In this document: piece by piece, positions 2,561 through 64,000 of the stretch
Position numbering within the stretch: position 1 is the first letter of the stretch
Layout of the letters: each line of letters opens with the position of its first letter
DNA from: Eledone cirrhosa
Taxonomy: Eukaryota
NCBI GenBank assembly: GCA_964016885.1
Contig: OZ024743.1
Coordinates: 249,550,001-249,614,000, forward strand
Length of the DNA: 64,000 nucleotides
Reading direction: 5' to 3'
Notes under the pieces: generated by a model
What the model was told of the DNA's origin: nothing
What the model saw: only the letters and a program-made list of their open reading frames with translations
The model's database searches: none
Position numbers and translations under genes: made by a program

Positions 2561-2639
2561 GTTAGAGGAGAGGTTGGCTGGCAGTCCTGCTAGGGACTTG
2601 CCTATGGCTAACAATATTAGGCATCACAAAAAAATGTCA

Positions 2640-3049
2640 CATATCAAGCGATATCTGTGTTTGAAGCTTTTTAAGTGAGGAAAGGTTTTGCATGGGGCCA
2701 AACTAACTCTCGGAATATTGAATGCATTTGGCCAAAAAGAAGAACTGGTCTACATCAGTGGATGCAAACGAAGTTGCAGGCTTTTTATCAGAGTGACCTT
2801 CTCCGGGAGAAATGTCTTAATGAAGACTAGGAGTCTCTTCCCCCTCCCCCTCAAAAAATATTGGACCGTCGTTGACTTTCATGCGTTCCTCCAATCTTTC
2901 GCGGGTTTTGTTTTTTATCCCACAGGTGTCCAAAATCACCTTCCTCACCAAGCAAGCTTGGTGGGGTTGCCGATTTAATTGCTGATGACCCGACCATGCA
3001 CAGGTTGTACTGGGTTACATGTTACCAGTAGCATTGAAGAGCGACCTGA
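2640..3049 (-). mobile_element. Diverged homologue of the 5' ~400 nt of the 608-bp array unit
   Basis: Starts TATG|TCAGGTCGCTCTTCAATGCTACTGGTAACATGTAACCCAGTACAACCTGT and stays colinear with the array unit through ...AAAAGCTTCA..ACAG...GCTTGATAT. Confidence 0.85.
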
Positions 3050-3360
3050 CATACATACACATACATATATACATGCATACATACACATATATGCACATAT
3101 ACATACACATACATATATACATGCATACATACACATATATGCACATATACATACACACACATACATACATGCATGCATACATACATACACACACACAGAC
3201 ATACATATACATACATATATACATAAATACATGCATACATACGCATATATACACACATATATATATATATATATACATACATACTCACACATACATACAT
3301 ACATATATACATACATGCATACATACACACGCATACATACGTACATATACATACAGACAG
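3050..3360. repeat. Degenerate (CATA)n/(CA)n microsatellite
   Basis: Direct inspection. It explains the HIYT/MYVC low-complexity ORFs. Confidence 0.95.
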
Positions 3361-12693: not shown

Positions 12694-12722
12694 AATTTAG
12701 AATAATTAACTTTGACAGTTAC

Positions 12723-13060: not shown

Positions 13061-13559
13061 CTGAGCATAAAAAACTGAAACTGATCCCTAAAGTCATAAA
13101 AAAGTGATGATGATGATGATAATGATAATGATGATGACATTTTTAATCTAATGATAATGGTTTCTGGCTTAGGCACAAGGCCGGCAATTGTGTGAGGCAG
13201 GAAAGCCAATTATATTAACATCAGTATTTGACTGCTACTTTAATTTATCAACCTCAAAGGGCTACAGGACAAAATGGAACTCAGTGGATGTTTTACATCA
13301 GGGGCATGAAACAGGCAGCCTGCAGGCCACAATCTGGCCTCCCAGACCAGTTAGAGTGGCCTGCGATGACTGTTATTAATTTTTACCTTGTAGGCTTATT
13401 TAGAATTTTTTCGTAACTATAATACAATTTTCTGTTAGTTGACCTATACTAAAGGGCTTCACTAATAGGGTTATGTGTGCTATAAGTTCCCAGTTCCATT
13501 TTATGGAAAGAAGTTGTGGTGAATCTTTGAAATAGTGCTTAAATATTAATGGCCCTAAT

Positions 13560-25902: not shown

Positions 25903-26169
25903 GGCGAAGTCTAGTCCGAAGTGTGCATGCGCTAAGTCTGGTCCAAAGTGCGCATGCGCGAAGGCTGGTCCGAAGTGCACGTGTGCGAAGGCTGCTCCGT
26001 ACTGTGCTTGTGCGAAGGGTGGTCCATACTGCACATGCGCGAAGGCTGCTCCATACTGCGCATGCCCGAAGGCTGGTACTAAGTGCGCATGCGCGAAGGC
26101 TCATCCGAAGTGCGCATGCGCAAATGCTGGTACGTACTGCGCATGCGCGAAGGATGTTGCGTATGTACT

Positions 26170-29200: not shown

Positions 29201-29325
29201 TGTATAACTAGAAGCATGTCATCACGATATAAGCCTCCGGTTACACCTGGTATTTTTCTATGTAGCGAATTAATTATAAATAGGCCCACAAGGTCCGTTA
29301 CCTGAGCTGAGTCTGATGATCCCAT
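26222..29325 (-). mobile_element. Penelope-like element, 5'-truncated (RT C-terminal half, GIY-YIG endonuclease, long AT-rich 3' region)
   Basis: MGSSDSAQVTDLVGL..GGLYRDD and VNFLDVTLNL (RT); YVNFNSNHP; CNCRNKSNCPLNNNCLAKNVVY...YVGST...FKFRFNNHK...CDLCIEE...CRH (GIY-YIG, 28056-28493). Extent beyond 28056 is inferred from the hammerhead and the terminal palindrome. Confidence 0.85.
26339..26403 (-). ncRNA. Minimal type I hammerhead ribozyme (partly decayed), Penelope-associated
   Basis: Minus strand: TATTTTGT-CTGATGA-AGACATACCA(loop)TGGTATCCCT-GAAA-TATGTA-TA-ATGAAATA. Stem I is 8 bp (2 GU), the CUGAUGA and GAAA cores are intact, stem III is short and near-palindromic, and stem II has 2 mismatches. 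Confidence 0.7.
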
Positions 29326-29697
29326 ACTTTATATCCATGTAGGAGAACCCCTACCGATGCGCTGAACGAGTGTGACTTTTTAGTCCAGCCAGCGACTTGA
29401 AAACTCTGGTACAAACACTACACTTATGACAATTATTGACACATAGTGTTGGGCCCATGGTACCATGTGACGACAAGTGCAGAGAGATCTCCAGATATAA
29501 AGCAATGCCTGTGCCGTGAAGCTTTTATAGTGAGCAAAGGCACTGCACAAAGCCAGTCCCACTCTCTTAACCAAGATGATATTTACCAAAAAGAAGAACA
29601 AGTCAACATCATTGGATACCATCAGGGTTGCAGGTGTTATATCAGAGTTTTCCTTCTCCTAGAATTCTGCCTTGACAAAGGCAGAATTCTAGGAGAA
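29326..29697 (-). mobile_element. Dispersed partial copy of the 608-bp array unit with a fold-back end
   Basis: Near-identical reverse complement of unit positions ~217-573; shares the 79/80-aa ORFs seen in the array. Confidence 0.95.
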
Positions 29698-43444: not shown

Positions 43445-44960
43445 TATGTATGTATGTATGTATGTATGTATGTATGTATGTATGTATGTATGTATGTATG
43501 TATGTATGTATGTATGTATGTATGTATGTATGTATGCATGCATGCATGCATGCATGCATGCATGCATGCATGCATGCATGCATGCATGCATGCATGTATG
43601 TATGTATGTATGTATGTCAGGTCACCAGTTGGTGCTACTGGTAACATGTATCCCAGTACAACCTGTCCCATGGTCGGGTCGTTGGCGACTAAACTGGCAA
43701 ACCCACCAAGGTTTCTTGGTGAGGAGGGTGACTTTGGACATCCTGCAGGACTAAAAACAAAACCTGTCAAAGGGCAAAGGAGCTCTTAAGAGTCAATGGC
43801 CATCCAAAATCACCGGGAGAGATGACCCCTTAGCTTTTGTCAAGGCAGAATTCTAGGAGAAGGAAAACTCTGATATAACACCTGCAACCCTGATGGTATC
43901 CAATGATGTTGACTTGTTCTTCTTTTTGGTAAATATCATCTTGGTTAAGAGAGTGGGACTGGCTTTGTGCAGTGCCTTTGCTCACTATAAAAGCTTCACG
44001 GCACAGGCATTGCTTTATATCTGGAGATCTCTCTGCACTTGTCGTCACATGGTACCATGGGCCCAGCACTATGTGTCAGTAATTGTCACAAGTGTAGTGT
44101 TTGTACCAGAGTTTTCAAGTCACTGGCTGGACTAAAAAGTCACACTCGTTCAGCGCATCGGTAGGGGTTCTCCTACATGGATATAAAGTAGTGGCCGTAC
44201 TCGAAAACGAGTTGGCAGCCACCATGTATGTATGTATGTATGTATGTATGTATGTATGTATGTATGTATGTATGTATGTATGTATGTATGTATGTCAGGT
44301 CACCAGTTGGTGCTACTGGTAACATGTATCCCAGTACAACCTGTCCCATGGTCGGGTCGTTGGCGACTAAACTGGCAAACCCACCAAGGTTTCTTGGTGA
44401 GGAGGGTGACTTTGGACATCCTGCAGGACTAAAAACAAAACCTGTCAAAGGGCAAAGGAGCTCTTAAGAGTCAATGGCCATCCAAAATCACCGGGAGAGA
44501 TGACCCCTTAGCCTTTGTCAAGGCAGAATTCTAGGAGAAGGAAAACTCTGATATAACACCTGCAACCCTGATGGTATCCAATGATGTTGACTTGTTCTTC
44601 TTTTTGGTAAATATCATCTTGGTTAAGAGAGTGGGACTGGCTTTGTGCAGTGCCTTTGCTCACTATAAAAGCTTCACGGCACAGGCATTGCTTTATATCT
44701 GGAGATCTCTCTGCACTTGTCGTCACATGGTACCATGGGCCCAGCACTATGTGTCAGTAATTGTCACAAGTGTAGTGTTTGTACCAGAGTTTTCAAGTCA
44801 CTGGCTGGACTAAAAAGTCACACTCGTTCAGCGCATCGGTAGGGGTTCTCCTACATGGATATAAAGTAGTGGCCGTACTCGAAAACGAGTTGGCAGCCAC
44901 CATGTATGTATGTATGTATGTATGTATGTATGTATGTATGTATGTATGTATGTATGTATG

Positions 44961-44994
<34 letters not shown>

Positions 44995-45335
44995 TGTATG
45001 TAAATATCATCTTGGTTAAGAGAGTGGGACTGGCTTTGTGCAGTGCCTTTGCTCACTATAAAAGCTTCACGACACAGGCATTGCTTTATATCTGGAGATT
45101 TCTCTGCACTTGTCGTCACATGGTACCATGGGCCTAGCGCTATGTGTCAATAATTGTCACACGTGTAGTGTTTGTACCAGAGTTTTCAAGTCGCTGGCTG
45201 GACTAAAGTCACATTCGTTCAGCGCATCGGTAGGAGTTCTCCTACATGGATATAAAGTAGTGGCCGTACTCGAAAACGAGTTGGCAGCCACCATGTATGT
45301 ATGTATGTATGTATGTATGTATGTATGTATGTATG

Positions 45336-45369
<34 letters not shown>

Positions 45370-48300
45370 TCATCTTGGTTAAGAGAGTGGGACTGGCTTT
45401 GTGCAGTGCCTTTGCTCACTATAAAAGCTTCACGACACAGGCATTGCTTTATATCTGGAGATTTCTCTGCACTTGTCGTCACATGGTACCATGGGCCTAG
45501 CGCTATGTGTCAATAATTGTCACACGTGTAGTGTTTGTACCAGAGTTTTCAAGTCGCTGGCTGGACTAAAGTCACATTCGTTCAGCGCATCGGTAGGAGT
45601 TCTCCTACATGGATATAAAGTAGTGGCCGTACTCGAAAACGAGTTGGCAGCCACCATGTATGTATGTATGTATGTATGTATGTATGTATGTATGTATGTA
45701 TGTATGTATGTATGTATGTATGTATGTATGTATGTATGTCAGATCACCAGTTGGTGCTACTGGTAACATGTATCCCAGTACAACCTGTCCCATGGTCGGG
45801 TCGTTGGCGACTAAACTGGCAAACCCACCAAGGTTTCTTGGTGAGGAGGGTGACTTTGGACATCCTGCAGGACTAAAAACAAAACCTGTCAAAGGGCAAA
45901 GGAGCTCTTAAGAGTCAATGGCCATCCAAAATCACCGGGAGAGATGACCCCTTAGCCTTTGTCAAGGCAGAATTCTAGGAGAAGGAAAACTCTGATATAA
46001 CACCTGCAACCCTGATGGTATCCAATGATGTTGACTTGTTCTTCTTTTTGGTAAATATCATCTTGGTTAAGAGAGTGGGACTGGCTTTGTGCAGTGCCTT
46101 TGCTCACTATAAAAGCTTCACGGCACAGGCATTGCTTTATATCTGGAGATCTCTCTGCACTTGTCGTCACATGGTACCATGGGCCCAGCACTATGTGTCA
46201 GTAATTGTCACAAGTGTAGTGTTTGTACCAGAGTTTTCAAGTCACTGGCTGGACTAAAAAGTCACACTCGTTCAGCGCATCGGTAGGGGTTCTCCTACAT
46301 GGATATAAAGTAGTGGCCGTACTCGAAAACGAGTTGGCAGCCACCATGTATGTATGTATGTATGTATGTATGTATGTATGTATGTATGTATGTATGTATG
46401 TCAGGTCACCAGTTGGTGCTACTGGTAACATGTATCCCAGTACAACCTGTCCCATGGTCGGGTCGTTGGCGACTAAACTGGCAAACCCACCAAGGTTTCT
46501 TGGTGAGGAGGGTGACTTTGGACATCCTGCAGGACTAAAAACAAAACCTGTCAAAGGGCAAAGGAGCTCTTAAGAGTCAATGGCCATCCAAAATCACCGG
46601 GAGAGATGACCCCTTAGCCTTTGTCAAGGCAGAATTCTAGGAGAAGGAAAACTCTGATATAACACCTGCAACCCTGATGGTATCCAATGATGTTGACTTG
46701 TTCTTCTTTTTGGTAAATATCATCTTGGTTAAGAGAGTGGGACTGGCTTTGTGCAGTGCCTTTGCTCACTATAAAAGCTTCACGGCACAGGCATTGCTTT
46801 ATATCTGGAGATCTCTCTGCACTTGTCGTCACATGGTACCATGGGCCCAGCACTATGTGTCAGTAATTGTCACAAGTGTAGTGTTTGTACCAGAGTTTTC
46901 AAGTCACTGGCTGGACTAAAAAGTCACACTCGTTCAGCGCATCGGTAGGGGTTCTCCTACATGGATATAAAGTAGTGGCCGTACTCGAAAACGAGTTGGC
47001 AGCCACCATGTATGTATGTATGTATGTATGTATGTATGTATGTATGTATGTATGTATGTATGTATGTATGTATGTATGTATGTATGTATGTATGTTATGT
47101 ATGTTATGTCAGGTCACCAGTTGGTGCTACTGGTAACATGTATCCCAGTACAACCTGTCCCATGGTCGGGTCGTTGGCGACTAAACTGGCAAACCCACCA
47201 AGGTTTCTTGGTGAGGAGGGTGACTTTGGACATCCTGCAGGACTAAAAACAAAACCTGTCAAAGGGCAAAGGAGCTCTTAAGAGTCAATGGCCATCCAAA
47301 ATCACCGGGAGAGATGACCCCTTAGCCTTTGTCAAGGCAGAATTCTAGGAGAAGGAAAACTCTGATATAACACCTGCAACCCTGATGGTATCCAATGAGG
47401 TTGACTTGTTCTTCTTTTTGGTAAATATCATCTTGGTTAAGAGAGTGGGACTGGCTTTGTGCAGTGCCTTTGCTCACTATAAAAGCTTCACGGCACAGGC
47501 ATTGCTTTATATCTGGAGATCTCTCTGCACTTGTCGTCACATGGTACCATGGGCCCAGCACTATGTGTCAGTAATTGTCACAAGTGTAGTGTTTGTACCA
47601 GAGTTTTCAAGTCACTGGCTGGACTAAAAAGTCACACTCGTTCAGCGCATCGGTAGGGGTTCTCCTACATGGATATAAAGTAGTGGCCGTACTCGAAAAC
47701 GAGTTGGCAGCCACCATGTATGTATGTATGTATGTATGTATGTATGTATGTATGTATGTATGTATGTATGTATGTATGTATGTATGTATGTATGTATGCA
47801 TGCATGCATGCATGCATGCATGCATGCATGCATGCATGCATGTATGTATGTATGTATGTATGTATGTATGTATGTCAGGTCACCAGTTGGTGCTACTGGT
47901 AACATGTATCCCAGTACAACCTGTCCCATGGTCGGGTCGTTGGCGACTAAACTGGCAAACCCACCAAGGTTTCTTGGTGAGGAGGGTGACTTTGGACATC
48001 CTGCAGGACTAAAAACAAAACCTGTCAAAGGGCAAAGGAGCTCTTAAGAGTCAATGGCCATCCAAAATCACCGGGAGAGATGACCCCTTAGCCTTTGTCA
48101 AGGCAGAATTCTAGGAGAAGGAAAACTCTGATATAACACCTGCAACCCTGATGGTATCCAATGATGTTGACTTGTTCTTCTTTTTGGTAAATATCATCTT
48201 GGTTAAGAGAGTGGGACTGGCTTTGTGCAGTGCCTTTGCTCACTATAAAAGCTTCACGGCACAGGCATTGCTTTATATCTGGAGATCTCTCTGCACTTGT

Positions 48301-49166
48301 CGTCACATGGTACCATGGGCCCAGCACTATGTGTCAGTAATTGTCACAAGTGTAGTGTTTGTACCAGAGTTTTCAAGTCACTGGCTGGACTAAAAAGTCA
48401 CACTCGTTCAGCGCATCGGTAGGGGTTCTCCTACATGGATATAAAGTAGTGGCCGTACTCGAAAACGAGTTGGCAGCCACCATGTATGTATGTATGTATG
48501 TATGTATGTATGTATGTATGTATGTCAGGTCACCAGTTGGTGCTACTGGTAACATGTATCCCAGTACAACCTGTCCCATGGTCGGGTCGTTGGCGACTAA
48601 ACTGGCAAACCCACCAAGGTTTCTTGGTGAGGAGGGTGACTTTGGACATCCTGCAGGACTAAAAACAAAACCTGTCAAAGGGCAAAGGAGCTCTTAAGAG
48701 TCAATGGCCATCCAAAATCACCGGGAGAGATGACCCCTTAGCCTTTGTCAAGGCAGAATTCTAGGAGAAGGAAAACTCTGATATAACACCTGCAACCCTG
48801 ATGGTATCCAATGATGTTGACTTGTTCTTCTTTTTGGTAAATATCATCTTGGTTAAGAGAGTGGGACTGGCTTTGTGCAGTGCCTTTGCTCACTATAAAA
48901 GCTTCACGGCACAGGCATTGCTTTATATCTGGAGATCTCTCTGCACTTGTCGTCACATGGTACCATGGGCCCAGCACTATGTGTCAGTAATTGTCACAAG
49001 TGTAGTGTTTGTACCAGAGTTTTCAAGTCACTGGCTGGACTAAAAAGTCACACTCGTTCAGCGCATCGGTAGGGGTTCTCCTACATGGATATAAAGTAGT
49101 GGCCGTACTCGAAAACGAGTTGGCAGCCACCATGTATGTATGTATGTATGTATGTATGTATGTATG

Positions 49167-49200
<34 letters not shown>

Positions 49201-49541
49201 TGTATGTAAATATCATCTTGGTTAAGAGAGTGGGACTGGCTTTGTGCAGTGCCTTTGCTCACTATAAAAGCTTCACGACACAGGCATTGCTTTATATCTG
49301 GAGATTTCTCTGCACTTGTCGTCACATGGTACCATGGGCCTAGCGCTATGTGTCAATAATTGTCACACGTGTAGTGTTTGTACCAGAGTTTTCAAGTCGC
49401 TGGCTGGACTAAAGTCACATTCGTTCAGCGCATCGGTAGGAGTTCTCCTACATGGATATAAAGTAGTGGCCGTACTCGAAAACGAGTTGGCAGCCACCAT
49501 GTATGTATGTATGTATGTATGTATGTATGTATGTATGTATG

Positions 49542-49575
<34 letters not shown>

Positions 49576-52500
49576 TCATCTTGGTTAAGAGAGTGGGACT
49601 GGCTTTGTGCAGTGCCTTTGCTCACTATAAAAGCTTCACGACACAGGCATTGCTTTATATCTGGAGATTTCTCTGCACTTGTCGTCACATGGTACCATGG
49701 GCCTAGCGCTATGTGTCAATAATTGTCACACGTGTAGTGTTTGTACCAGAGTTTTCAAGTCGCTGGCTGGACTAAAGTCACATTCGTTCAGCGCATCGGT
49801 AGGAGTTCTCCTACATGGATATAAAGTAGTGGCCGTACTCGAAAACGAGTTGGCAGCCACCATGTATGTATGTATGTATGTATGTATGTATGTATGTATG
49901 TATGTATGTATGTATGTATGTATGTATGTATGTATGTATGTATGTATGTCAGATCACCAGTTGGTGCTACTGGTAACATGTATCCCAGTACAACCTGTCC
50001 CATGGTCGGGTCGTTGGCGACTAAACTGGCAAACCCACCAAGGTTTCTTGGTGAGGAGGGTGACTTTGGACATCCTGCAGGACTAAAAACAAAACCTGTC
50101 AAAGGGCAAAGGAGCTCTTAAGAGTCAATGGCCATCCAAAATCACCGGGAGAGATGACCCCTTAGCCTTTGTCAAGGCAGAATTCTAGGAGAAGGAAAAC
50201 TCTGATATAACACCTGCAACCCTGATGGTATCCAATGATGTTGACTTGTTCTTCTTTTTGGTAAATATCATCTTGGTTAAGAGAGTGGGACTGGCTTTGT
50301 GCAGTGCCTTTGCTCACTATAAAAGCTTCACGGCACAGGCATTGCTTTATATCTGGAGATCTCTCTGCACTTGTCGTCACATGGTACCATGGGCCCAGCA
50401 CTATGTGTCAGTAATTGTCACAAGTGTAGTGTTTGTACCAGAGTTTTCAAGTCACTGGCTGGACTAAAAAGTCACACTCGTTCAGCGCATCGGTAGGGGT
50501 TCTCCTACATGGATATAAAGTAGTGGCCGTACTCGAAAACGAGTTGGCAGCCACCATGTATGTATGTATGTATGTATGTATGTATGTATGTATGTATGTA
50601 TGTATGTATGTATGTATGTATGTCAGGTCACCAGTTGGTGCTACTGGTAACATGTATCCCAGTACAACCTGTCCCATGGTCGGGTCGTTGGCGACTAAAC
50701 TGGCAAACCCACCAAGGTTTCTTGGTGAGGAGGGTGACTTTGGACATCCTGCAGGACTAAAAACAAAACCTGTCAAAGGGCAAAGGAGCTCTTAAGAGTC
50801 AATGGCCATCCAAAATCACCGGGAGAGATGACCCCTTAGCCTTTGTCAAGGCAGAATTCTAGGAGAAGGAAAACTCTGATATAACACCTGCAACCCTGAT
50901 GGTATCCAATGATGTTGACTTGTTCTTCTTTTTGGTAAATATCATCTTGGTTAAGAGAGTGGGACTGGCTTTGTGCAGTGCCTTTGCTCACTATAAAAGC
51001 TTCACGGCACAGGCATTGCTTTATATCTGGAGATCTCTCTGCACTTGTCGTCACATGGTACCATGGGCCCAGCACTATGTGTCAGTAATTGTCACAAGTG
51101 TAGTGTTTGTACCAGAGTTTTCAAGTCACTGGCTGGACTAAAAAGTCACACTCGTTCAGCGCATCGGTAGGGGTTCTCCTACATGGATATAAAGTAGTGG
51201 CCGTACTCGAAAACGAGTTGGCAGCCACCATGTATGTATGTATGTATGTATGTATGTATGTATGTATGTATGTATGTATGTATGTATGTATGTATGTATG
51301 TATGTATGTATGTATGTATGTTATGTATGTTATGTCAGGTCACCAGTTGGTGCTACTGGTAACATGTATCCCAGTACAACCTGTCCCATGGTCGGGTCGT
51401 TGGCGACTAAACTGGCAAACCCACCAAGGTTTCTTGGTGAGGAGGGTGACTTTGGACATCCTGCAGGACTAAAAACAAAACCTGTCAAAGGGCAAAGGAG
51501 CTCTTAAGAGTCAATGGCCATCCAAAATCACCGGGAGAGATGACCCCTTAGCCTTTGTCAAGGCAGAATTCTAGGAGAAGGAAAACTCTGATATAACACC
51601 TGCAACCCTGATGGTATCCAATGAGGTTGACTTGTTCTTCTTTTTGGTAAATATCATCTTGGTTAAGAGAGTGGGACTGGCTTTGTGCAGTGCCTTTGCT
51701 CACTATAAAAGCTTCACGGCACAGGCATTGCTTTATATCTGGAGATCTCTCTGCACTTGTCGTCACATGGTACCATGGGCCCAGCACTATGTGTCAGTAA
51801 TTGTCACAAGTGTAGTGTTTGTACCAGAGTTTTCAAGTCACTGGCTGGACTAAAAAGTCACACTCGTTCAGCGCATCGGTAGGGGTTCTCCTACATGGAT
51901 ATAAAGTAGTGGCCGTACTCGAAAACGAGTTGGCAGCCACCATGTATGTATGTATGTATGTATGTATGTATGTATGTATGTATGTATGTATGTATGTATG
52001 TATGTATGTATGTATGTATGTATGTATGTATGTATGTTATGTCAGGTCACCAGTTGGTGCTACTGGTAACATGTATCCCAGTACAACCTGTCCCATGGTC
52101 GGGTCGTTGGCGACTAAACTGGCAAACCCACCAAGGTTTCTTGGTGAGGAGGGTGACTTTGGACATCCTGCAGGACTAAAAACAAAACCTGTCAAAGGGC
52201 AAAGGAGCTCTTAAGACTCAATGGCCATCCAAAATCACCGGGAGAGATGACCCCTTAGCCTTTGTCAAGGCAGAATTCTAGGAGAAGGAAAACTCTGATA
52301 TAACACCTGCAACCCTGATGGTATCCAATGAGGTTGACTTGTTCTTCTTTTTGGTAAATATCATCTTGGTTAAGAGAGTGGGACTGGCTTTGTGCAGTGC
52401 CTTTGCTCACTATAAAAGCTTCACGGCACAGGCATTGCTTTATATCTGGAGATCTCTCTGCACTTGTCGTCACATGGTACCATGGGCCCAGCACTATGTG

Positions 52501-52699
52501 TCAGTAATTGTCACAAGTGTAGTGTTTGTACCAGAGTTTTCAAGTCACTGGCTGGACTAAAAAGTCACACTCGTTCAGCGCATCGGTAGGGGTTCTCCTA
52601 CATGGATATAAAGTAGTGGCCGTACTCGAAAACGAGTTGGCAGCCACCATGTATGTATGTATGTATGTATGTATGTATGTATGTATGTATGTATGTATG

Positions 52700-52733
<34 letters not shown>

Positions 52734-54477
52734 TGTATGTAAATATCATCTTGGTTAAGAGAGTGGGACTGGCTTTGTGCAGTGCCTTTGCTCACTATAA
52801 AAGCTTCACGACACAGGCATTGCTTTATATCTGGAGATTTCTCTGCACTTGTCGTCACATGGTACCATGGGCCTAGCGCTATGTGTCAATAATTGTCACA
52901 CGTGTAGTGTTTGTACCAGAGTTTTCAAGTCGCTGGCTGGACTAAAGTCACATTCGTTCAGCGCATCGGTAGGAGTTCTCCTACATGGATATAAAGTAGT
53001 GGCCGTACTCGAAAACGAGTTGGCAGCCACCATGTATGTATGTATGTATGTATGTATGTATGTATGTATGTATGTATGTATGTATGTATGTATGTATGTA
53101 TGTATGTATGTATGTATGTTATGTATGTTATGTCAGGTCACCAGTTGGTGCTACTGGTAACATGTATCCCAGTACAACCTGTCCCATGGTCGGGTCGTTG
53201 GCGACTAAACTGGCAAACCCACCAAGGTTTCTTGGTGAGGAGGGTGACTTTGGACATCCTGCAGGACTAAAAACAAAACCTGTCAAAGGGCAAAGGAGCT
53301 CTTAAGAGTCAATGGCCATCCAAAATCACCGGGAGAGATGACCCCTTAGCCTTTGTCAAGGCAGAATTCTAGGAGAAGGAAAACTCTGATATAACACCTG
53401 CAACCCTGATGGTATCCAATGAGGTTGACTTGTTCTTCTTTTTGGTAAATATCATCTTGGTTAAGAGAGTGGGACTGGCTTTGTGCAGTGCCTTTGCTCA
53501 CTATAAAAGCTTCACGGCACAGGCATTGCTTTATATCTGGAGATCTCTCTGCACTTGTCGTCACATGGTACCATGGGCCCAGCACTATGTGTCAGTAATT
53601 GTCACAAGTGTAGTGTTTGTACCAGAGTTTTCAAGTCACTGGCTGGACTAAAAAGTCACACTCGTTCAGCGCATCGGTAGGGGTTCTCCTACATGGATAT
53701 AAAGTAGTGGCCGTACTCGAAAACGAGTTGGCAGCCACCATGTATGTATGTATGTATGTATGTATGTATGTATGTATGTATGTATGTATGTATGTATGTA
53801 TGTATGTATGTATGTATGTATGTATGTTATGTCAGGTCACCAGTTGGTGCTACTGGTAACATGTATCCCAGTACAACCTGTCCCATGGTCGGGTCGTTGG
53901 CGACTAAACTGGCAAACCCACCAAGGTTTCTTGGTGAGGAGGGTGACTTTGGACATCCTGCAGGACTAAAAACAAAACCTGTCAAAGGGCAAAGGAGCTC
54001 TTAAGAGTCAATGGCCATCCAAAATCACCGGGAGAGATGACCCCTTAGCCTTTGTCAAGGCAGAATTCTAGGAGAAGGAAAACTCTGATATAACACCTGC
54101 AACCCTGATGGTATCCAATGAGGTTGACTTGTTCTTCTTTTTGGTAAATATCATCTTGGTTAAGAGAGTGGGACTGGCTTTGTGCAGTGCCTTTGCTCAC
54201 TATAAAAGCTTCACGGCACAGGCATTGCTTTATATCTGGAGATCTCTCTGCACTTGTCGTCACATGGTACCATGGGCCCAGCACTATGTGTCAGTAATTG
54301 TCACAAGTGTAGTGTTTGTACCAGAGTTTTCAAGTCACTGGCTGGACTAAAAAGTCACACTCGTTCAGCGCATCGGTAGGGGTTCTCCTACATGGATATA
54401 AAGTAGTGGCCGTACTCGAAAACGAGTTGGCAGCCACCATGTATGTATGTATGTATGTATGTATGTATGTATGTATG

Positions 54478-54511
<34 letters not shown>

Positions 54512-57500
54512 TCATCTTGGTTAAGAGAGTGGGACTGGCTTTGTGCAGTGCCTTTGCTCACTATAAAAGCTTCACGACACAGGCATTGCTTTATATCTGG
54601 AGATTTCTCTGCACTTGTCGTCACATGGTACCATGGGCCTAGCGCTATGTGTCAATAATTGTCACACGTGTAGTGTTTGTACCAGAGTTTTCAAGTCGCT
54701 GGCTGGACTAAAGTCACATTCGTTCAGCGCATCGGTAGGAGTTCTCCTACATGGATATAAAGTAGTGGCCGTACTCGAAAACGAGTTGGCAGCCACCATG
54801 TATGTATGTATGTATGTATGTATGTATGTATGTATGTATGTATGTATGTATGTATGTATGTATGTATGTATGTATGTATGTTATGTATGTTATGTCAGGT
54901 CACCAGTTGGTGCTACTGGTAACATGTATCCCAGTACAACCTGTCCCATGGTCGGGTCGTTGGCGACTAAACTGGCAAACCCACCAAGGTTTCTTGGTGA
55001 GGAGGGTGACTTTGGACATCCTGCAGGACTAAAAACAAAACCTGTCAAAGGGCAAAGGAGCTCTTAAGAGTCAATGGCCATCCAAAATCACCGGGAGAGA
55101 TGACCCCTTAGCCTTTGTCAAGGCAGAATTCTAGGAGAAGGAAAACTCTGATATAACACCTGCAACCCTGATGGTATCCAATGATGTTGACTTGTTCTTC
55201 TTTTTGGTAAATATCATCTTGGTTAAGAGAGTGGGACTGGCTTTGTGCAGTGCCTTTGCTCACTATAAAAGCTTCACGGCACAGGCATTGCTTTATATCT
55301 GGAGATCTCTCTGCACTTGTCGTCACATGGTACCATGGGCCCAGCACTATGTGTCAGTAATTGTCACAAGTGTAGTGTTTGTACCAGAGTTTTCAAGTCA
55401 CTGGCTGGACTAAAAAGTCACACTCGTTCAGCGCATCGGTAGGGGTTCTCCTACATGGATATAAAGTAGTGGCCGTACTCGAAAACGAGTTGGCAGCCAC
55501 CATGTATGTATGTATGTATGTATGTATGTATGTATGTATGTATGTATGTATGTATGTATGTATGTATGTATGTTATGTATGTTATGTCAGGTCACCAGTT
55601 GGTGCTACTGGTAACATGTATCCCAGTACAACCTGTCCCATGGTCGGGTCGTTGGCGACTAAACTGGCAAACCCACCAAGGTTTCTTGGTGAGGAGGGTG
55701 ACTTTGGACATCCTGCAGGACTAAAAACAAAACCTGTCAAAGGGCAAAGGAGCTCTTAAGAGTCAATGGCCATCCAAAATCACCGGGAGAGATGACCCCT
55801 TAGCCTTTGTCAAGGCAGAATTCTAGGAGAAGGAAAACTCTGATATAACACCTGCAACCCTGATGGTATCCAATGATGTTGACTTGTTCTTCTTTTTGGT
55901 AAATATCATCTTGGTTAAGAGAGTGGGACTGGCTTTGTGCAGTGCCTTTGCTCACTATAAAAGCTTCACGGCACAGGCATTGCTTTATATCTGGAGATCT
56001 CTCTGCACTTGTCGTCACATGGTACCATGGGCCCAGCACTATGTGTCAGTAATTGTCACAAGTGTAGTGTTTGTACCAGAGTTTTCAAGTCACTGGCTGG
56101 ACTAAAAAGTCACACTCGTTCAGCGCATCGGTAGGGGTTCTCCTACATGGATATAAAGTAGTGGCCGTACTCGAAAACGAGTTGGCAGCCACCATGTATG
56201 TATGTATGTATGTATGTATGTATGTATGTATGTATGTATGTATGTATGTATGTATGTATGTATGTATGTATGTTATGTATGTTATGTCAGGTCACCAGTT
56301 GGTGCTACTGGTAACATGTATCCCAGTACAACCTGTCCCATGGTCGGGTCGTTGGCGACTAAACTGGCAAACCCACCAAGGTTTCTTGGTGAGGAGGGTG
56401 ACTTTGGACATCCTGCAGGACTAAAAACAAAACCTGTCAAAGGGCAAAGGAGCTCTTAAGAGTCAATGGCCATCCAAAATCACCGGGAGAGATGACCCCT
56501 TAGCCTTTGTCAAGGCAGAATTCTAGGAGAAGGAAAACTCTGATATAACACCTGCAACCCTGATGGTATCCAATGATGTTGACTTGTTCTTCTTTTTGGT
56601 AAATATCATCTTGGTTAAGAGAGTGGGACTGGCTTTGTGCAGTGCCTTTGCTCACTATAAAAGCTTCACGGCACAGGCATTGCTTTATATCTGGAGATCT
56701 CTCTGCACTTGTCGTCACATGGTACCATGGGCCCAGCACTATGTGTCAGTAATTGTCACAAGTGTAGTGTTTGTACCAGAGTTTTCAAGTCACTGGCTGG
56801 ACTAAAAAGTCACACTCGTTCAGCGCATCGGTAGGGGTTCTCCTACATGGATATAAAGTAGTGGCCGTACTCGAAAACGAGTTGGCAGCCACCATGTATG
56901 TATGTATGTATGTATGTATGTATGTATGTATGTATGTATGTATGTATGTATGTATGTATGTATGTATGTATGTATGTATGTATGTTATGTATGTTATGTC
57001 AGGTCACCAGTTGGTGCTACTGGTAACATGTATCCCAGTACAACCTGTCCCATGGTCGGGTCGTTGGCGACTAAACTGGCAAACCCACCAAGGTTTCTTG
57101 GTGAGGAGGGTGACTTTGGACATCCTGCAGGACTAAAAACAAAACCTGTCAAAGGGCAAAGGAGCTCTTAAGAGTCAATGGCCATCCAAAATCACCGGGA
57201 GAGATGACCCCTTAGCCTTTGTCAAGGCAGAATTCTAGGAGAAGGAAAACTCTGATATAACACCTGCAACCCTGATGGTATCCAATGAGGTTGACTTGTT
57301 CTTCTTTTTGGTAAATATCATCTTGGTTAAGAGAGTGGGACTGGCTTTGTGCAGTGCCTTTGCTCACTATAAAAGCTTCACGGCACAGGCATTGCTTTAT
57401 ATCTGGAGATCTCTCTGCACTTGTCGTCACATGGTACCATGGGCCCAGCACTATGTGTCAGTAATTGTCACAAGTGTAGTGTTTGTACCAGAGTTTTCAA

Positions 57501-57644
57501 GTCACTGGCTGGACTAAAAAGTCACACTCGTTCAGCGCATCGGTAGGGGTTCTCCTACATGGATATAAAGTAGTGGCCGTACTCGAAAACGAGTTGGCAG
57601 CCACCATGTATGTATGTATGTATGTATGTATGTATGTATGTATG

Positions 57645-57678
<34 letters not shown>

Positions 57679-60600
57679 TGTATGTAAATATCATCTTGGT
57701 TAAGAGAGTGGGACTGGCTTTGTGCAGTGCCTTTGCTCACTATAAAAGCTTCACGACACAGGCATTGCTTTATATCTGGAGATTTCTCTGCACTTGTCGT
57801 CACATGGTACCATGGGCCTAGCGCTATGTGTCAATAATTGTCACACGTGTAGTGTTTGTACCAGAGTTTTCAAGTCGCTGGCTGGACTAAAGTCACATTC
57901 GTTCAGCGCATCGGTAGGAGTTCTCCTACATGGATATAAAGTAGTGGCCGTACTCGAAAACGAGTTGGCAGCCACCATGTATGTATGTATGTATGTATGT
58001 ATGTATGTATGTATGTATGTATGTATGTATGTATGTATGTATGTATGTATGTATGTATGTATGTATGTATGTATGTATGTATGTTATGTATGTTATGTCA
58101 GGTCACCAGTTGGTGCTACTGGTAACATGTATCCCAGTACAACCTGTCCCATGGTCGGGTCGTTGGCGACTAAACTGGCAAACCCACCAAGGTTTCTTGG
58201 TGAGGAGGGTGACTTTGGACATCCTGCAGGACTAAAAACAAAACCTGTCAAAGGGCAAAGGAGCTCTTAAGAGTCAATGGCCATCCAAAATCACCGGGAG
58301 AGATGACCCCTTAGCCTTTGTCAAGGCAGAATTCTAGGAGAAGGAAAACTCTGATATAACACCTGCAACCCTGATGGTATCCAATGATGTTGACTTGTTC
58401 TTCTTTTTGGTAAATATCATCTTGGTTAAGAGAGTGGGACTGGCTTTGTGCAGTGCCTTTGCTCACTATAAAAGCTTCACGGCACAGGCATTGCTTTATA
58501 TCTGGAGATCTCTCTGCACTTGTCGTCACATGGTACCATGGGCCCAGCACTATGTGTCAGTAATTGTCACAAGTGTAGTGTTTGTACCAGAGTTTTCAAG
58601 TCACTGGCTGGACTAAAAAGTCACACTCGTTCAGCGCATCGGTAGGGGTTCTCCTACATGGATATAAAGTAGTGGCCGTACTCGAAAACGAGTTGGCAGC
58701 CACCATGTATGTATGTATGTATGTATGTATGTATGTATGTATGTATGTATGTATGTATGTATGTATGTATGTATGTATGTATGTATGTATGTATGTATGT
58801 ATGTATGTTATGTCAGGTCACCAGTTGGTGCTACTGGTAACATGTATCCCAGTACAACCTGTCCCATGGTCGGGTCGTTGGCGACTAAACTGGCAAACCC
58901 ACCAAGGTTTCTTGGTGAGGAGGGTGACTTTGGACATCCTGCAGGACTAAAAACAAAACCTGTCAAAGGGCAAAGGAGCTCTTAAGAGTCAATGGCCATC
59001 CAAAATCACCGGGAGAGATGACCCCTTAGCCTTTGTCAAGGCAGAATTCTAGGAGAAGGAAAACTCTGATATAACACCTGCAACCCTGATGGTATCCAAT
59101 GAGGTTGACTTGTTCTTCTTTTTGGTAAATATCATCTTGGTTAAGAGAGTGGGACTGGCTTTGTGCAGTGCCTTTGCTCACTATAAAAGCTTCACGGCAC
59201 AGGCATTGCTTTATATCTGGAGATCTCTCTGCACTTGTCGTCACATGGTACCATGGGCCCAGCACTATGTGTCAGTAATTGTCACAAGTGTAGTGTTTGT
59301 ACCAGAGTTTTCAAGTCACTGGCTGGACTAAAAAGTCACACTCGTTCAGCGCATCGGTAGGGGTTCTCCTACATGGATATAAAGTAGTGGCCGTACTCGA
59401 AAACGAGTTGGCAGCCACCATGTATGTATGTATGTATGTATGTATGTATGTATGTATGTATGTATGTATGTATGTATGTATGTATGTATGTATGTATGTA
59501 TGTATGTATGTATGTATGTATGTATGTTATGTATGTTATGTCAGGTCACCAGTTGGTGCTACTGGTAACATGTATCCCAGTACAACCTGTCCCATGGTCG
59601 GGTCGTTGGCGACTAAACTGGCAAACCCACCAAGGTTTCTTGGTGAGGAGGGTGACTTTGGACATCCTGCAGGACTAAAAACAAAACCTGTCAAAGGGCA
59701 AAGGAGCTCTTAAGAGTCAATGGCCATCCAAAATCACCGGGAGAGATGACCCCTTAGCCTTTGTCAAGGCAGAATTCTAGGAGAAGGAAAACTCTGATAT
59801 AACACCTGCAACCCTGATGGTATCCAATGATGTTGACTTGTTCTTCTTTTTGGTAAATATCATCTTGGTTAAGAGAGTGGGACTGGCTTTGTGCAGTGCC
59901 TTTGCTCACTATAAAAGCTTCACGGCACAGGCATTGCTTTATATCTGGAGATCTCTCTGCACTTGTCGTCACATGGTACCATGGGCCCAGCACTATGTGT
60001 CAGTAATTGTCACAAGTGTAGTGTTTGTACCAGAGTTTTCAAGTCACTGGCTGGACTAAAAAGTCACACTCGTTCAGCGCATCGGTAGGGGTTCTCCTAC
60101 ATGGATATAAAGTAGTGGCCGTACTCGAAAACGAGTTGGCAGCCACCATGTATGTATGTATGTATGTATGTATGTATGTATGTATGTATGTATGTATGTA
60201 TGTATGTATGTATGTATGTATGTATGTATGTATGTTATGTATGTTATGTCAGGTCACCAGTTGGTGCTACTGGTAACATGTATCCCAGTACAACCTGTCC
60301 CATGGTCGGGTCGTTGGCGACTAAACTGGCAAACCCACCAAGGTTTCTTGGTGAGGAGGGTGACTTTGGACATCCTGCAGGACTAAAAACAAAACCTGTC
60401 AAAGGGCAAAGGAGCTCTTAAGAGTCAATGGCCATCCAAAATCACCGGGAGAGATGACCCCTTAGCCTTTGTCAAGGCAGAATTCTAGGAGAAGGAAAAC
60501 TCTGATATAACACCTGCAACCCTGATGGTATCCAATGATGTTGACTTGTTCTTCTTTTTGGTAAATATCATCTTGGTTAAGAGAGTGGGACTGGCTTTGT

Positions 60601-63600
60601 GCAGTGCCTTTGCTCACTATAAAAGCTTCACGGCACAGGCATTGCTTTATATCTGGAGATCTCTCTGCACTTGTCGTCACATGGTACCATGGGCCCAGCA
60701 CTATGTGTCAGTAATTGTCACAAGTGTAGTGTTTGTACCAGAGTTTTCAAGTCACTGGCTGGACTAAAAAGTCACACTCGTTCAGCGCATCGGTAGGGGT
60801 TCTCCTACATGGATATAAAGTAGTGGCCGTACTCGAAAACGAGTTGGCAGCCACCATGTATGTATGTATGTATGTATGTATGTATGTATGTATGTATGTA
60901 TGTATGTATGTATGTATGTATGTATGTATGTATGTTATGTATGTTATGTATGTTATGTCAGGTCACCAGTTGGTGCTACTGGTAACATGTATCCCAGTAC
61001 AACCTGTCCCATGGTCGGGTCGTTGGCGACTAAACTGGCAAACCCACCAAGGTTTCTTGGTGAGGAGGGTGACTTTGGACATCCTGCAGGACTAAAAACA
61101 AAACCTGTCAAAGGGCAAAGGAGCTCTTAAGAGTCAATGGCCATCCAAAATCACCGGGAGAGATGACCCCTTAGCCTTTGTCAAGGCAGAATTCTAGGAG
61201 AAGGAAAACTCTGATATAACACCTGCAACCCTGATGGTATCCAATGATGTTGACTTGTTCTTCTTTTTGGTAAATATCATCTTGGTTAAGAGAGTGGGAC
61301 TGGCTTTGTGCAGTGCCTTTGCTCACTATAAAAGCTTCACGGCACAGGCATTGCTTTATATCTGGAGATCTCTCTGCACTTGTCGTCACATGGTACCATG
61401 GGCCCAGCACTATGTGTCAGTAATTGTCACAAGTGTAGTGTTTGTACCAGAGTTTTCAAGTCACTGGCTGGACTAAAAAGTCACACTCGTTCAGCGCATC
61501 GGTAGGGGTTCTCCTACATGGATATAAAGTAGTGGCCGTACTCGAAAACGAGTTGGCAGCCACCATGTATGTATGTATGTATGTATGTATGTATGTATGT
61601 ATGTATGTATGTATGTATGTATGTATGTTATGTATGTTATGTCAGGTCACCAGTTGGTGCTACTGGTAACATGTATCCCAGTACAACCTGTCCCATGGTC
61701 GGGTCGTTGGCGACTAAACTGGCAAACCCACCAAGGTTTCTTGGTGAGGAGGGTGACTTTGGACATCCTGCAGGACTAAAAACAAAACCTGTCAAAGGGC
61801 AAAGGAGCTCTTAAGAGTCAATGGCCATCCAAAATCACCGGGAGAGATGACCCCTTAGCCTTTGTCAAGGCAGAATTCTAGGAGAAGGAAAACTCTGATA
61901 TAACACCTGCAACCCTGATGGTATCCAATGATGTTGACTTGTTCTTCTTTTTGGTAAATATCATCTTGGTTAAGAGAGTGGGACTGGCTTTGTGCAGTGC
62001 CTTTGCTCACTATAAAAGCTTCACGGCACAGGCATTGCTTTATATCTGGAGATCTCTCTGCACTTGTCGTCACATGGTACCATGGGCCCAGCACTATGTG
62101 TCAGTAATTGTCACAAGTGTAGTGTTTGTACCAGAGTTTTCAAGTCACTGGCTGGACTAAAAAGTCACACTCGTTCAGCGCATCGGTAGGGGTTCTCCTA
62201 CATGGATATAAAGTAGTGGCCGTACTCGAAAACGAGTTGGCAGCCACCATGTATGTATGTATGTATGTATGTATGTATGTATGTATGTATGTATGTATGT
62301 ATGTATGTATGTATGTATGTATGTATGTATGTTATGTATGTTATGTCAGGTCACCAGTTGGTGCTACTGGTAACATGTATCCCAGTACAACCTGTCCCAT
62401 GGTCGGGTCGTTGGCGACTAAACTGGCAAACCCACCAAGGTTTCTTGGTGAGGAGGGTGACTTTGGACATCCTGCAGGACTAAAAACAAAACCTGTCAAA
62501 GGGCAAAGGAGCTCTTAAGAGTCAATGGCCATCCAAAATCACCGGGAGAGATGACCCCTTAGCCTTTGTCAAGGCAGAATTCTAGGAGAAGGAAAACTCT
62601 GATATAACACCTGCAACCCTGATGGTATCCAATGATGTTGACTTGTTCTTCTTTTTGGTAAATATCATCTTGGTTAAGAGAGTGGGACTGGCTTTGTGCA
62701 GTGCCTTTGCTCACTATAAAAGCTTCACGGCACAGGCATTGCTTTATATCTGGAGATCTCTCTGCACTTGTCGTCACATGGTACCATGGGCCCAGCACTA
62801 TGTGTCAGTAATTGTCACAAGTGTAGTGTTTGTACCAGAGTTTTCAAGTCACTGGCTGGACTAAAAAGTCACACTCGTTCAGCGCATCGGTAGGGGTTCT
62901 CCTACATGGATATAAAGTAGTGGCCGTACTCGAAAACGAGTTGGCAGCCACCATGTATGTATGTATGTATGTATGTATGTATGTATGTATGTATGTATGT
63001 ATGTATGTATGTATGTATGTATGTATGTATGTATGTATGTATGTATGTTATGTATGTTATGTCAGGTCACCAGTTGGTGCTACTGGTAACATGTATCCCA
63101 GTACAACCTGTCCCATGGTCGGGTCGTTGGCGACTAAACTGGCAAACCCACCAAGGTTTCTTGGTGAGGAGGGTGACTTTGGACATCCTGCAGGACTAAA
63201 AACAAAACCTGTCAAAGGGCAAAGGAGCTCTTAAGAGTCAATGGCCATCCAAAATCACCGGGAGAGATGACCCCTTAGCCTTTGTCAAGGCAGAATTCTA
63301 GGAGAAGGAAAACTCTGATATAACACCTGCAACCCTGATGGTATCCAATGATGTTGACTTGTTCTTCTTTTTGGTAAATATCATCTTGGTTAAGAGAGTG
63401 GGACTGGCTTTGTGCAGTGCCTTTGCTCACTATAAAAGCTTCACGGCACAGGCATTGCTTTATATCTGGAGATCTCTCTGCACTTGTCGTCACATGGTAC
63501 CATGGGCCCAGCACTATGTGTCAGTAATTGTCACAAGTGTAGTGTTTGTACCAGAGTTTTCAAGTCACTGGCTGGACTAAAAAGTCACACTCGTTCAGCG

Positions 63601-64000
63601 CATCGGTAGGGGTTCTCCTACATGGATATAAAGTAGTGGCCGTACTCGAAAACGAGTTGGCAGCCACCATGTATGTATGTATGTATGTATGTATGTATGT
63701 ATGTATGTATGTATGTATGTATGTATGTATGTATGTATGTATGTATGTATGTATGTATGTATGTTATGTATGTTATGTATGTTATGTCAGGTCACCAGTT
63801 GGTGCTACTGGTAACATGTATCCCAGTACAACCTGTCCCATGGTCGGGTCGTTGGCGACTAAACTGGCAAACCCACCAAGGTTTCTTGGTGAGGAGGGTG
63901 ACTTTGGACATCCTGCAGGACTAAAAACAAAACCTGTCAAAGGGCAAAGGAGCTCTTAAGAGTCAATGGCCATCCAAAATCACCGGGAGAGATGACCCCT
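43445..64000 (+). repeat. Retroelement-derived tandem array: 608-bp unit A (25 full plus 1 partial) and ~294-bp 5'-truncated unit B (7 copies), separated by variable (TATG)n; runs off the window
   Basis: A starts at 43617, 44295, 45739, 46401, 47109, 47875, 48525 ... 63062, 63787. B starts at ~45000, 45363, 49206, 49569, 52739, 54505 and 57684. Copies of each type differ by only a few SNPs. Confidence 0.97.
43617..44224 (+). mobile_element. Representative unit A: bipartite non-autonomous non-LTR retroelement (LINE-like 5' leader plus LINE 3' end), probably RTE-related
   Basis: Hairpin-rich leader; ORF remnant MGPALCVSNCHKCSVCTRVFKSLAGLKSHTRSAHR* at 44057-44164; short 3' UTR with stem-loop GTGGC..ACTCG AAAA CGAGT..GCCAC (44191-44222); microsatellite tail. 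Dispersed relatives lie at 2640-3049 and 29326-29697. Confidence 0.75.

What the first reader, a model, noticed from the sequence alone, without database searches (positions are those of the whole stretch)
43445..64000. A >20-kb head-to-tail array of a (TATG)n-tailed non-autonomous retroelement: a possible self-targeting, self-stacking retro-satellite
Seen: every unit has the same orientation, ends in a stem-loop followed by (TATG)n of variable length (roughly 45-170 nt), and starts at the junction TATG|TCAGG. The unit has retroposon anatomy (leader, ORF end with stop, 3' hairpin, microsatellite tail) rather than satellite anatomy, and relatives occur dispersed in the window. Established: RTE-clade LINEs end in short-repeat tails and give rise to internally deleted bipartite derivatives, and some non-LTR elements target microsatellites. 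Inference: the element inserts into (TATG)n and brings a new (TATG)n tail, so each insertion regenerates its own target. Arrays would then grow much like telomeric retrotransposon arrays and be amplified further by recombination.
Basis: partly seen in the sequence, partly recalled or inferred. Interest (0 to 1): 0.85.

Follow-up and report, generated by a model that had tools for sequence, protein, structure and literature searches.

The report
Retroposon array that exports multimer copies
A 25-kb head-to-tail run of 38 copies of a short parasitic retroelement that sits in TA/TATG microsatellites; it likely grew from a few insertions by DNA duplication, and likely sent chains of 2-5 copies to three other places through RNA, which would be a route for satellites to spread.

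Summary
The array is real: 38 same-strand units over 25.2 kb (32 complete in the window), interstitial on a 379-Mb contig. The 608-bp unit is a non-autonomous, internally deleted derivative of an RTE-type LINE (5' UTR plus last zinc finger and 3' hairpin); the family has at least 26,781 3' ends. An intact, high-copy APE-RT-zinc-finger LINE shares its 3' end and target and is the likely mobiliser, though not the direct parent. Two corrections. The (TATG)n "tail" is mostly target: solo copies end in (TA)n or (TATG)n matching their upstream flank. And this array did not grow by serial insertion: ordinary stacks of the family are independent, 3% divergent insertions, whereas here units are near-identical, one truncated insertion is repeated seven times and a 7-unit block is duplicated with its spacers. 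That fits the known double-insertion-then-unequal-exchange model. The new part: a spacer mark found at only four loci genome-wide, and a rare haplotype, tie the array's right arm to three distant 2-5-unit copies, each 5'-truncated with an exact 3' end, the form of retrotransposed multimers. No RNA evidence yet.

The parts
43445..64000 (+). Array, window part: 32 complete units (25 full, 7 truncated) and the start of unit 33; continues 4.6 kb past the window to 38 units and a terminal (ATGT)173
43445..43615 (+). Left microsatellite tract, (TATG)n with a (CATG)n patch; the patch recurs before unit 8
44294..44901 (+). Representative full unit (608 bp, starts GTCAGG, ends GCAGCCACC)
44294..44484 (+). 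5' head, 73-81% like four metagenome contigs, two of which carry an RTE-type endonuclease ORF downstream; shared with two older non-autonomous families here; no Rfam, tRNA or conserved HDV-like match
44485..44691 (+). Segment homologous to the 5' UTR of the intact LINE 'RTE-A' (73-81%)
44669..44842 (+). ORF remnant ending in a C2H2 finger and stop; its last 88 nt are 65-67% like the last finger of RTE-A
44869..44900 (+). 3' terminal hairpin, 85% like the RTE-A terminus over 34 nt
45000..45292 (+). First of 7 identical 5'-truncated units (others start 45363, 49206, 49569, 52739, 54505, 57684); 9 substitutions and a 2-bp deletion against the full unit; one insertion, later duplicated
43445..47715 (+). 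Higher-order block 1 (units 1-7 with spacers)
47716..51941 (+). Higher-order block 2 (units 8-14): same order of unit types, variants and spacer marks as block 1
47092..47124 (+). First double-T spacer mark joined to a unit start; 29 matches genome-wide at 4 loci
59420..64000 (+). Homogeneous right arm (units 27-38, no variants, every spacer with 2 or 3 extra T); best match to the three distant multimers
29325..29682 (-). Dispersed fragment of the same family (unit positions about 216-573, 98.9%)
2638..3050 (-). Older relative (71%) with the same head, preceded by TATG-rich microsatellite

Best explanation
The array is 38 head-to-tail copies of a 608-bp non-coding derivative of an RTE-type LINE; it likely began as two to four reverse-transcribed insertions in one (TATG)n tract, likely grew by DNA-level duplication, and its right arm likely gave read-through RNAs that were reinserted elsewhere as chains of 2-5 units. 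Step 1 (anatomy shown; mobiliser inferred): the unit keeps a LINE 5' UTR and the last zinc finger and 3' hairpin; the intact LINE RTE-A has the same 3' terminus type and the same junction and would supply endonuclease and RT in trans. Step 2 (pattern shown; chemistry inferred): insertion is before an AT in (TA)n or (TATG)n, with fixed polarity on TATG; the tract is split and partly duplicated, so targets remain on both sides and later copies land head-to-tail. Step 3 (pattern shown): identical truncated units, shared variants and duplicated blocks with their spacers mean copying of existing array DNA, most simply unequal exchange or slippage. Step 4 (inferred): transcripts spanning several units end at a unit's 3' hairpin and are copied with 5' truncation, carrying the (ATGT)n spacers with them.
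For: Bipartite homology: of 20 RTE-A loci, 17 match the unit's 5' UTR segment, 20 the finger, 17 the terminus; RTE-A has APE, RT and C2H2 domains in one 1206-aa frame and 150 of 150 listed hits are identical over 200 aa of RT. Family size 26,781 exact 3' ends and 9,776 exact 5' ends. Junctions: 73 ATGT, 48 ATAT, 0 ATAC of 129; flank ATGT:ACAT 1821:84; RTE-A-type termini 25 of 26 ATGT or ATAT. Flanks correlate (rho 0.63, n 122); irregular duplications in 12 of 126 (10 after dropping 2 array-internal spacers) against 0.4% in shuffled pairs. Ordinary stacks: neighbours differ 3.2% against 3.4% for random pairs, 0 of 26 pairs within 0.5%. This array: full units differ by 0-2 bases; 7 identical truncated units; blocks 1-7 and 8-14 repeat; spacer lengths 119/78/110 repeat; variants A384, T412, C474, G290 absent from 119-128 dispersed copies. 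Daughters: the mark is at 4 loci only (20, 4, 4, 1); 3 of 3 have a 5'-truncated first unit (starting at 39, 167, 580) and an exact 3' end; the C2 copy carries an ATGT spacer inside TA-type flanks; the C498 mark order 3-2-2-2 occurs once in the array; the four-allele haplotype is in 0 of 46 and 0 of 19 copies picked without regard to it; flanks share only dispersed repeats with the array's flanks.
Against: RTE-A is a sister, not the parent: 65-85% identity, a different 5' end, and two searches for a closer partner found none. No transcript was seen. The head fits no promoter or ribozyme model tested, so how monomers get their sharp 5' G while multimers survive is unexplained. Daughter spacer lengths only roughly match (151/86/98/106 against 103/78/98/110). 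Only three daughters are known, one on an 8.5-kb unplaced contig. Four solo copies also carry the rare haplotype, so a third master locus could have seeded both array and daughters. RTE clade membership rests on architecture, not a tree. Flank statistics include non-independent neighbours and loci chosen for identity or clustering.
Confidence: 0.72

Rival explanations
1. One reading: each unit is a separate insertion that brings its own (TATG)n tail, as in telomeric retrotransposon arrays.
For: Serial same-strand stacking is common in the family: 22 of the first 100 3' ends lie in same-strand clusters within 1 kb, none in opposite-strand pairs (counted by eye); the truncated unit is an independent insertion.
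Against: Serial insertions should be about 3% apart and truncated at different points; here 31 full units differ by 0-2 bases and all 7 truncated units share one breakpoint and array-private variants. Tails follow the target; two insertions into the same host repeat (L033, L109) show no added tail and an 8-bp duplication (read).
Confidence: 0.06
2. Concatemers are made during reverse transcription: the RT jumps between monomer RNAs (each with its downstream spacer) from the array, so daughters, and perhaps parts of the array, are single-event chains rather than copies of one long RNA.
For: Full-length 5' ends are sharp at GTCAGG, as if monomers are cut or started there; stutter fragments at 5' junctions (L035, L039, L040) show template switching. 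End-to-end jumping by LINE RTs is recalled, not tested.
Against: Jumps should draw on the whole family's RNA, yet daughters hold only array-haplotype units with array marks; the C498 mark order matches one place in the array; no conserved ribozyme fold found; a 4.3-kb block including the left-flank (CATG)n patch is duplicated in place.
Confidence: 0.1
3. The three distant multimers were copied as DNA (ectopic conversion, break repair or circles excised from the array) with no RNA step.
For: Microsatellite flanks and about 27,000 near-identical copies give ample homology; the array itself grew at the DNA level.
Against: All 3 end exactly at a unit's 3' end and break mid-unit only at the 5' side; terminal units show no trace of a pre-existing divergent copy (0-1 differences); C2 ends in (TA)n, unlike the array; lengths (0.74, 3.3, 3.4 kb) fit RT run-off.
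Confidence: 0.15
4. The array, or much of its length, is an assembly artefact.
For: Twelve identical right-arm units, and one triplet of spacer lengths repeated exactly; 25 kb is near common long-read lengths (general knowledge).
Against: No gaps, unique flanks on both sides, ordered internal variation, and independent small arrays carrying the same marks with private substitutions.
Confidence: 0.04

Closest known systems
Bipartite non-autonomous RTE derivatives (Bov-A, RTESINE1/2, MAR4, WALLSI3, RTE-N2_Lch; Kojima 2018, PMC5786205, parts 1-2 of 5 read)
   Same: 5' UTR plus 3' end of an RTE-type LINE joined by internal deletion; no small-RNA head; high copy number; Bov-A2 is a dimer of such a unit.
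   Different: Keeps a zinc-finger ORF remnant; has no fixed tail; sits almost only in TA/TATG microsatellites; forms a 38-mer and variable multimers.
Double insertion then unequal exchange (R1 array on the Drosophila X, hobo and jockey tandems; McGurk and Barbash 2018, PMC5932611, passages)
   Same: Target-specific element, units separated by duplicated target, distinct truncations mark independent insertions, later DNA-level expansion.
   Different: The target is a microsatellite present genome-wide, the element is non-autonomous, and the array appears to export multimers; the passages seen describe no such export.
Tandem SINEs and SINE-derived satellites (jerboa Dip multimers up to eight; squamate sSats; Vassetzky et al. 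2023, PMC10702118, passages)
   Same: Short retroposons in head-to-tail multimers and arrays.
   Different: sSats come from portions of SINEs; here whole, likely still mobilisable units are repeated, and 38 is well above eight.
Target-specific non-LTR elements of microsatellites (HERO families, Togen on (TG)n; most target-specific families are early-branched, Tx1 or R1; Kojima and Jurka 2015, PMC4640811, passages; Dong, Waldo, Mino recalled)
   Same: Repeat targets, precise 3' and variable 5' junctions, occasional tandems.
   Different: The partner here has RTE architecture, a group not among the three named there.
RTE insertion signature and microsatellite ends (Bov-B and Sauria SINE, PMC13295347, passages; octopus RTE-2_OV, PMC9115989, passages)
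   Same: Bov-B duplications start with A then usually T, as the junctions here; RTE-2_OV has one EN-RT-C2H2 ORF with a microsatellite-rich 3' UTR, like RTE-A.
   Different: Those elements carry their own 3' repeat and are described as indiscriminate; identity of RTE-A with RTE-2_OV was not tested by alignment (1109 aa against about 1180 aa).
Drosophila telomeric retrotransposon arrays (passage in PMC5932611)
   Same: Head-to-tail, one orientation, 5' truncations.
   Different: Those grow by consecutive insertion at chromosome ends; this array is interstitial and mostly duplicated DNA.

Membership tests
Bipartite non-autonomous RTE derivative | 5' part homologous to a LINE 5' UTR | tested here: met
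   73-81% to RTE-A over unit 192-398; head 74-78% to two contigs with an RTE-type endonuclease downstream
Bipartite non-autonomous RTE derivative | 3' part homologous to the LINE 3' end | tested here: met
   finger 65-67% in 20 of 20, terminus 85% in 17 of 20 RTE-A loci
Bipartite non-autonomous RTE derivative | No RT or endonuclease coding capacity | tested here: met
   longest frames overlapping a unit under 140 aa
Bipartite non-autonomous RTE derivative | Marks of target-primed reverse transcription (exact 3' ends, 5' truncation, duplications) | tested here: met
   26,781 3' against 9,776 5' ends; 41 of 126 copies not full at 5'; duplications above shuffled pairs
Bipartite non-autonomous RTE derivative | Partner belongs to the RTE clade by RT phylogeny | not tested
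   no named reference RTs at hand; single ORF with APE, RT and C2H2 fits RTE by recalled architecture
Bipartite non-autonomous RTE derivative | Direct autonomous parent with near-identical ends | tested here: inconclusive
   only the sister RTE-A found; searches list only top hits
Classical SINE (tRNA, 5S or 7SL head) | Small-RNA-derived head | tested here: not met
   no tRNA in the window; no fitting Rfam family on the unit or four relatives
Retrozyme or ribozyme-headed retroposon | Known self-cleaving ribozyme in each unit | tested here: not met
   no Rfam ribozyme; own relaxed HDV-like descriptor (recalled) hit 2 of 8 heads, in different non-canonical registers; an undescribed ribozyme is not excluded
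Telomere-type serial insertion array | Units are independent insertions | tested here: not met
Telomere-type serial insertion array | Chromosome-end location | tested here: not met
   249.6 Mb on a 378.8-Mb contig
TE-derived satellite by double insertion and unequal exchange | At least two independent insertions separated by target sequence | tested here: met
   full and truncated types differ at 10 sites; spacers are target repeat
TE-derived satellite by double insertion and unequal exchange | Higher-order duplication and homogenisation | tested here: met
   blocks 1-7 and 8-14; identical right arm
TE-derived satellite by double insertion and unequal exchange | Copy-number variation among individuals; heterochromatin | not testable with these tools
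   one assembly; only short contigs of one sample laid
Helitron or rolling-circle tandem | TC...CTRR ends, no duplication, seamless junctions (recalled) | tested here: not met
   ends GTCAGG...CCACC, variable spacers, duplications, 5' truncation

The most novel reading that the evidence does not exclude
A complete element-to-satellite-to-element cycle caught in one genome: a microsatellite-targeting RTE parasite stacks on itself, one stack expands into a 25-kb satellite, and that satellite acts as a master locus whose read-through RNAs are retrotransposed as 2-5-unit chains, spacers included, seeding new mini-arrays and new (TATG)n targets on other chromosomes. This would be an RNA route for satellite dispersal, with each event traceable by a spacer barcode.
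Probability: 0.55. Interest if true: 0.72.

Novelty: new variant of a known kind. Interest (0 to 1): 0.52.

Why it matters
How satellites arise from mobile elements and how they jump between chromosomes are long-standing questions. Here the stages sit side by side and can be dated against each other: solo copies, divergent stacks, one homogenised array, and barcoded daughters. The multimer-export step is testable with long-read RNA and population long reads. The family also shows strong, polar microsatellite targeting by an element with RTE architecture. Nine literature searches (open-access library only, Repbase not searchable) showed no report of this family or of multimer export from such an array; each separate ingredient is known.

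Tried and rejected
A-to-G excess on the sense strand (RNA editing fixed by retrotransposition): rejected; singletons 34 A>G against 24 T>C (p 0.19), rare variants 63 against 57; the excess seen with all variants comes from shared subfamily sites. Ribozyme, tRNA or Rfam head: none; the 107-nt head folds no better than shuffles (z -1.4). Partner hunt: the top 30 RVT_1 loci are one unrelated, CR1-like family with no match to the unit; the finger peptide found no longer protein and only 150 of 150 non-coding copies in the genome; a pattern for an in-frame parent gave 2 mutant non-coding copies; the second-best outside homolog returned RTE-A-like loci only (41 scored). Sequencing runs: 20 of 24 listed runs hold half or more of the unit's words (16 studies, 17 coded organisms); no RNA holder listed. 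Contigs of 4 runs of one organism laid on a truncated unit cover its 5' junction bin in 3 runs of one sample, which may be the assembly's source; no piece spans the stretch, so array length is untested. Earlier findings of the scan: nothing. A genome-wide count of the array's haplotype and the DNA context of outside homologs were not obtained. Supplements of PMC9115989 were only partly searched (files 5-8 not searched, 2 too large) and may hold the RTE-2_OV sequence. PMC13282606 (part 1 of 3), PMC2887409 and PMC12628747 (passages) added nothing specific; PMC8501958 was seen as a listing only. The host looks like an octopus by recall of its repeat landscape; no call shows this.
Full report
Observation. 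The window is contig C4 249,550,001-249,614,000 of a 3.0-Gb genome. From 43445 on it holds 32 complete same-strand units: 25 of 606 bp (608 with the leading GT) and 7 of 293 bp, separated by 44-173 nt of (ATGT)n. The neighbouring stretch adds the rest of unit 33, five more units and (ATGT)173, for 38 units and 25,167 bp. There is no N in the window. The site is interstitial (249.6 of 378.8 Mb).

What the unit is. It has no long frame, but one frame ends in a C2H2 finger and stop. A LINE found right of the array and at another copy, here called RTE-A, has one 1206-aa frame with endonuclease, RT and C2H2 domains; 150 of 150 listed genome hits are identical over 200 aa of its RT, many with frames near 1200 aa. 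Of 20 RTE-A loci fetched, 17 match unit positions 251-398 (73%), 20 match the finger (65-67%) and 17 the last 34 nt (85%); the misses are 5'-truncated or lack the terminus in the stretch fetched. RTE-A has a different 5' end. The unit's head is 73-81% like four metagenome contigs, two with an RTE-type endonuclease ORF behind it (47-62% amino-acid identity to RTE-A), and is shared by two older non-coding families here. So the unit is LINE 5' UTR plus LINE 3' end, the bipartite type described by Kojima 2018 (PMC5786205, parts 1-2 of 5). RTE-A is a sister lineage and the likely mobiliser (inference); a closer parent was not found. The RTE label rests on architecture, not on a tree.

Family and target. 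Exact 19-nt 3' ends number 26,781 and exact 21-nt 5' ends 9,776 (lower bounds). I held 139 copies of 85% or more in 90 of 136 loci examined; loci were picked by identity (L032-049), by peptide (L080-109), by position or clustering (L133-172) or as RTE-A sites. Of 129 3' junctions, 73 start ATGT, 48 ATAT, none ATAC; 105 match AT(RT)4 against 0.57% and 0.12% of background positions; flanks hold ATGT against ACAT 1821 to 84; RTE-A-type termini are 15 ATGT and 10 ATAT of 26. Upstream and downstream TA content correlate (rho 0.63, n 122), and irregular duplications occur in 12 of 126 copies (2 of them array-internal spacers) against 0.4% of shuffled pairs; one of about 55 bp is visible in L039. L033 and L109 are insertions in the same host repeat and serve as each other's empty site: no added tail in one, an 8-bp duplication in the other (read). 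The 'tail' is therefore mostly target. An A-then-T start of the duplication is also reported for Bov-B (PMC13295347, passages); most target-specific non-LTR families are said to be early-branched, Tx1 or R1 (PMC4640811, passages).

Stacking. Among the first 100 3' ends listed (19.3 Mb), 22 lie in same-strand clusters within 1 kb (12 adjacent pairs) and none in opposite-strand pairs (counted by eye); uniform placement would give about 0.5%. In 22 ordinary chains, neighbours differ by 3.2% (26 pairs, none within 0.5%), as random pairs do (3.4%, 5,206 pairs); 14 of 31 downstream members are 5'-truncated, of which 5 are split pieces or another family.

This array. It differs from ordinary stacks. 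Full units are within 0-2 bases of each other; the 7 short units share one breakpoint, 9 substitutions and a 2-bp deletion; units 1-7 recur as 8-14 with the same types, variants, spacer marks and the left-flank (CATG)n patch; spacer lengths 119/78/110 recur at the right end. Variants A384, T412, C474 and G290 were in none of 119-128 dispersed copies. Two to four founding insertions followed by DNA-level duplication explain this (inference), the path described for R1 and other elements by McGurk and Barbash (PMC5932611, passages).

Export of multimers. The spacer mark with two extra T joined to a unit start occurs 29 times genome-wide, at four loci: 20 in this array, 4 on C3, 4 on C498, 1 on C2. 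Each distant locus has a 5'-truncated first unit (from position 39, 167, 580), then 4, 4 and 1 full units each with the mark, and an exact 3' end. All carry the array's four-allele haplotype, found in 0 of 46 position-picked and 0 of 19 peptide-picked copies, and in four solo copies among identity-picked ones. None carries G290 or a short unit, which points to the homogeneous right arm; the C498 mark order 3-2-2-2 occurs once there, with roughly similar lengths. At C2 an ATGT spacer sits inside TA-type flanks, so there the element did bring (TATG)n with it, as an internal spacer. Flanks share only dispersed repeats with the array's flanks. Private substitutions differ among daughters (6, 1, 1), which suggests separate events. 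The asymmetry and sizes (0.74-3.4 kb) fit reverse transcription of read-through RNA; template jumping, DNA-level copying and a third master locus remain possible. No RNA was seen.

Open points. The promoter and the cause of the sharp 5' G are unknown; no known ribozyme or small-RNA head was found. Array length rests on one assembly.

Verdict. Real feature; known kind of element and known route to an array; new in its polar microsatellite targeting at this scale and, if confirmed, in the export of multimers from the array. Interest 0.52; novel reading probability 0.55, interest 0.72 if true.

Noticed in passing
L031 4603-9464 (right of the array): An RTE-A copy directly follows the terminal (ATGT)173: its first 284 bp are inverted relative to three other copies with a short duplication at the break (looks like twin priming, recalled term), and it lacks about 600 bp of the ORF. 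The array grew in this copy's 5' flanking tract.
   Followed up: partly
L046, L047, L048, L087, L105, L108: Elements with RT and a restriction-like endonuclease motif (Dong/R4-like by recall) lie beside the same (TATG)n tracts, in L048 and L105 on the opposite strand, tail to tail with the unit; the tracts look like shared landing sites for two LINE groups.
   Followed up: partly
L049 2606-3236 (-), L131 696-1221, L090 1760-2200, L091 (-), window 2638-3050 (-): At least two older non-coding families share the head and a GCAGCCATC end; one joins an RTE-A-like 5' UTR directly to the RTE-A 3' end.
   Followed up: partly
L174, L175, L176: In other organisms the same head is preceded by (GTCAG)n repeats rather than TATG; its core is nearly invariant across these contigs and may be a promoter or an undescribed structured RNA.
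   Followed up: partly
L113-L132: RTE-A's UTRs are full of simple repeats and its 3' UTR varies from about 240 to 500 nt or more among copies with identical RT segments; two copies have frames of 1671 and 2144 aa that run in from upstream microsatellite.
   Followed up: no
L050-L079: A second young LINE family (CR1-like by recall, 945-aa frames) dominates the RVT_1 hits; in L055 it is followed by a short-period tandem repeat.
   Followed up: no
window 5997-8606, 16831-17316, 28059-28721, 30237-33441, 37679-39489: Fragments that look like a Ty3-type LTR element, a Tc1 transposase, a GIY-YIG/Penelope-like element (with a unit fragment inserted near 29325-29682), another APE-RT LINE and a Helitron helicase; labels by recall from translations.
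   Followed up: no
window 11007-12694, 13559-14770, 15160-15730, 25904-26153: Unrelated minisatellites with periods 28, about 24 (TGG/TGT-rich), 48 and 27.
   Followed up: no
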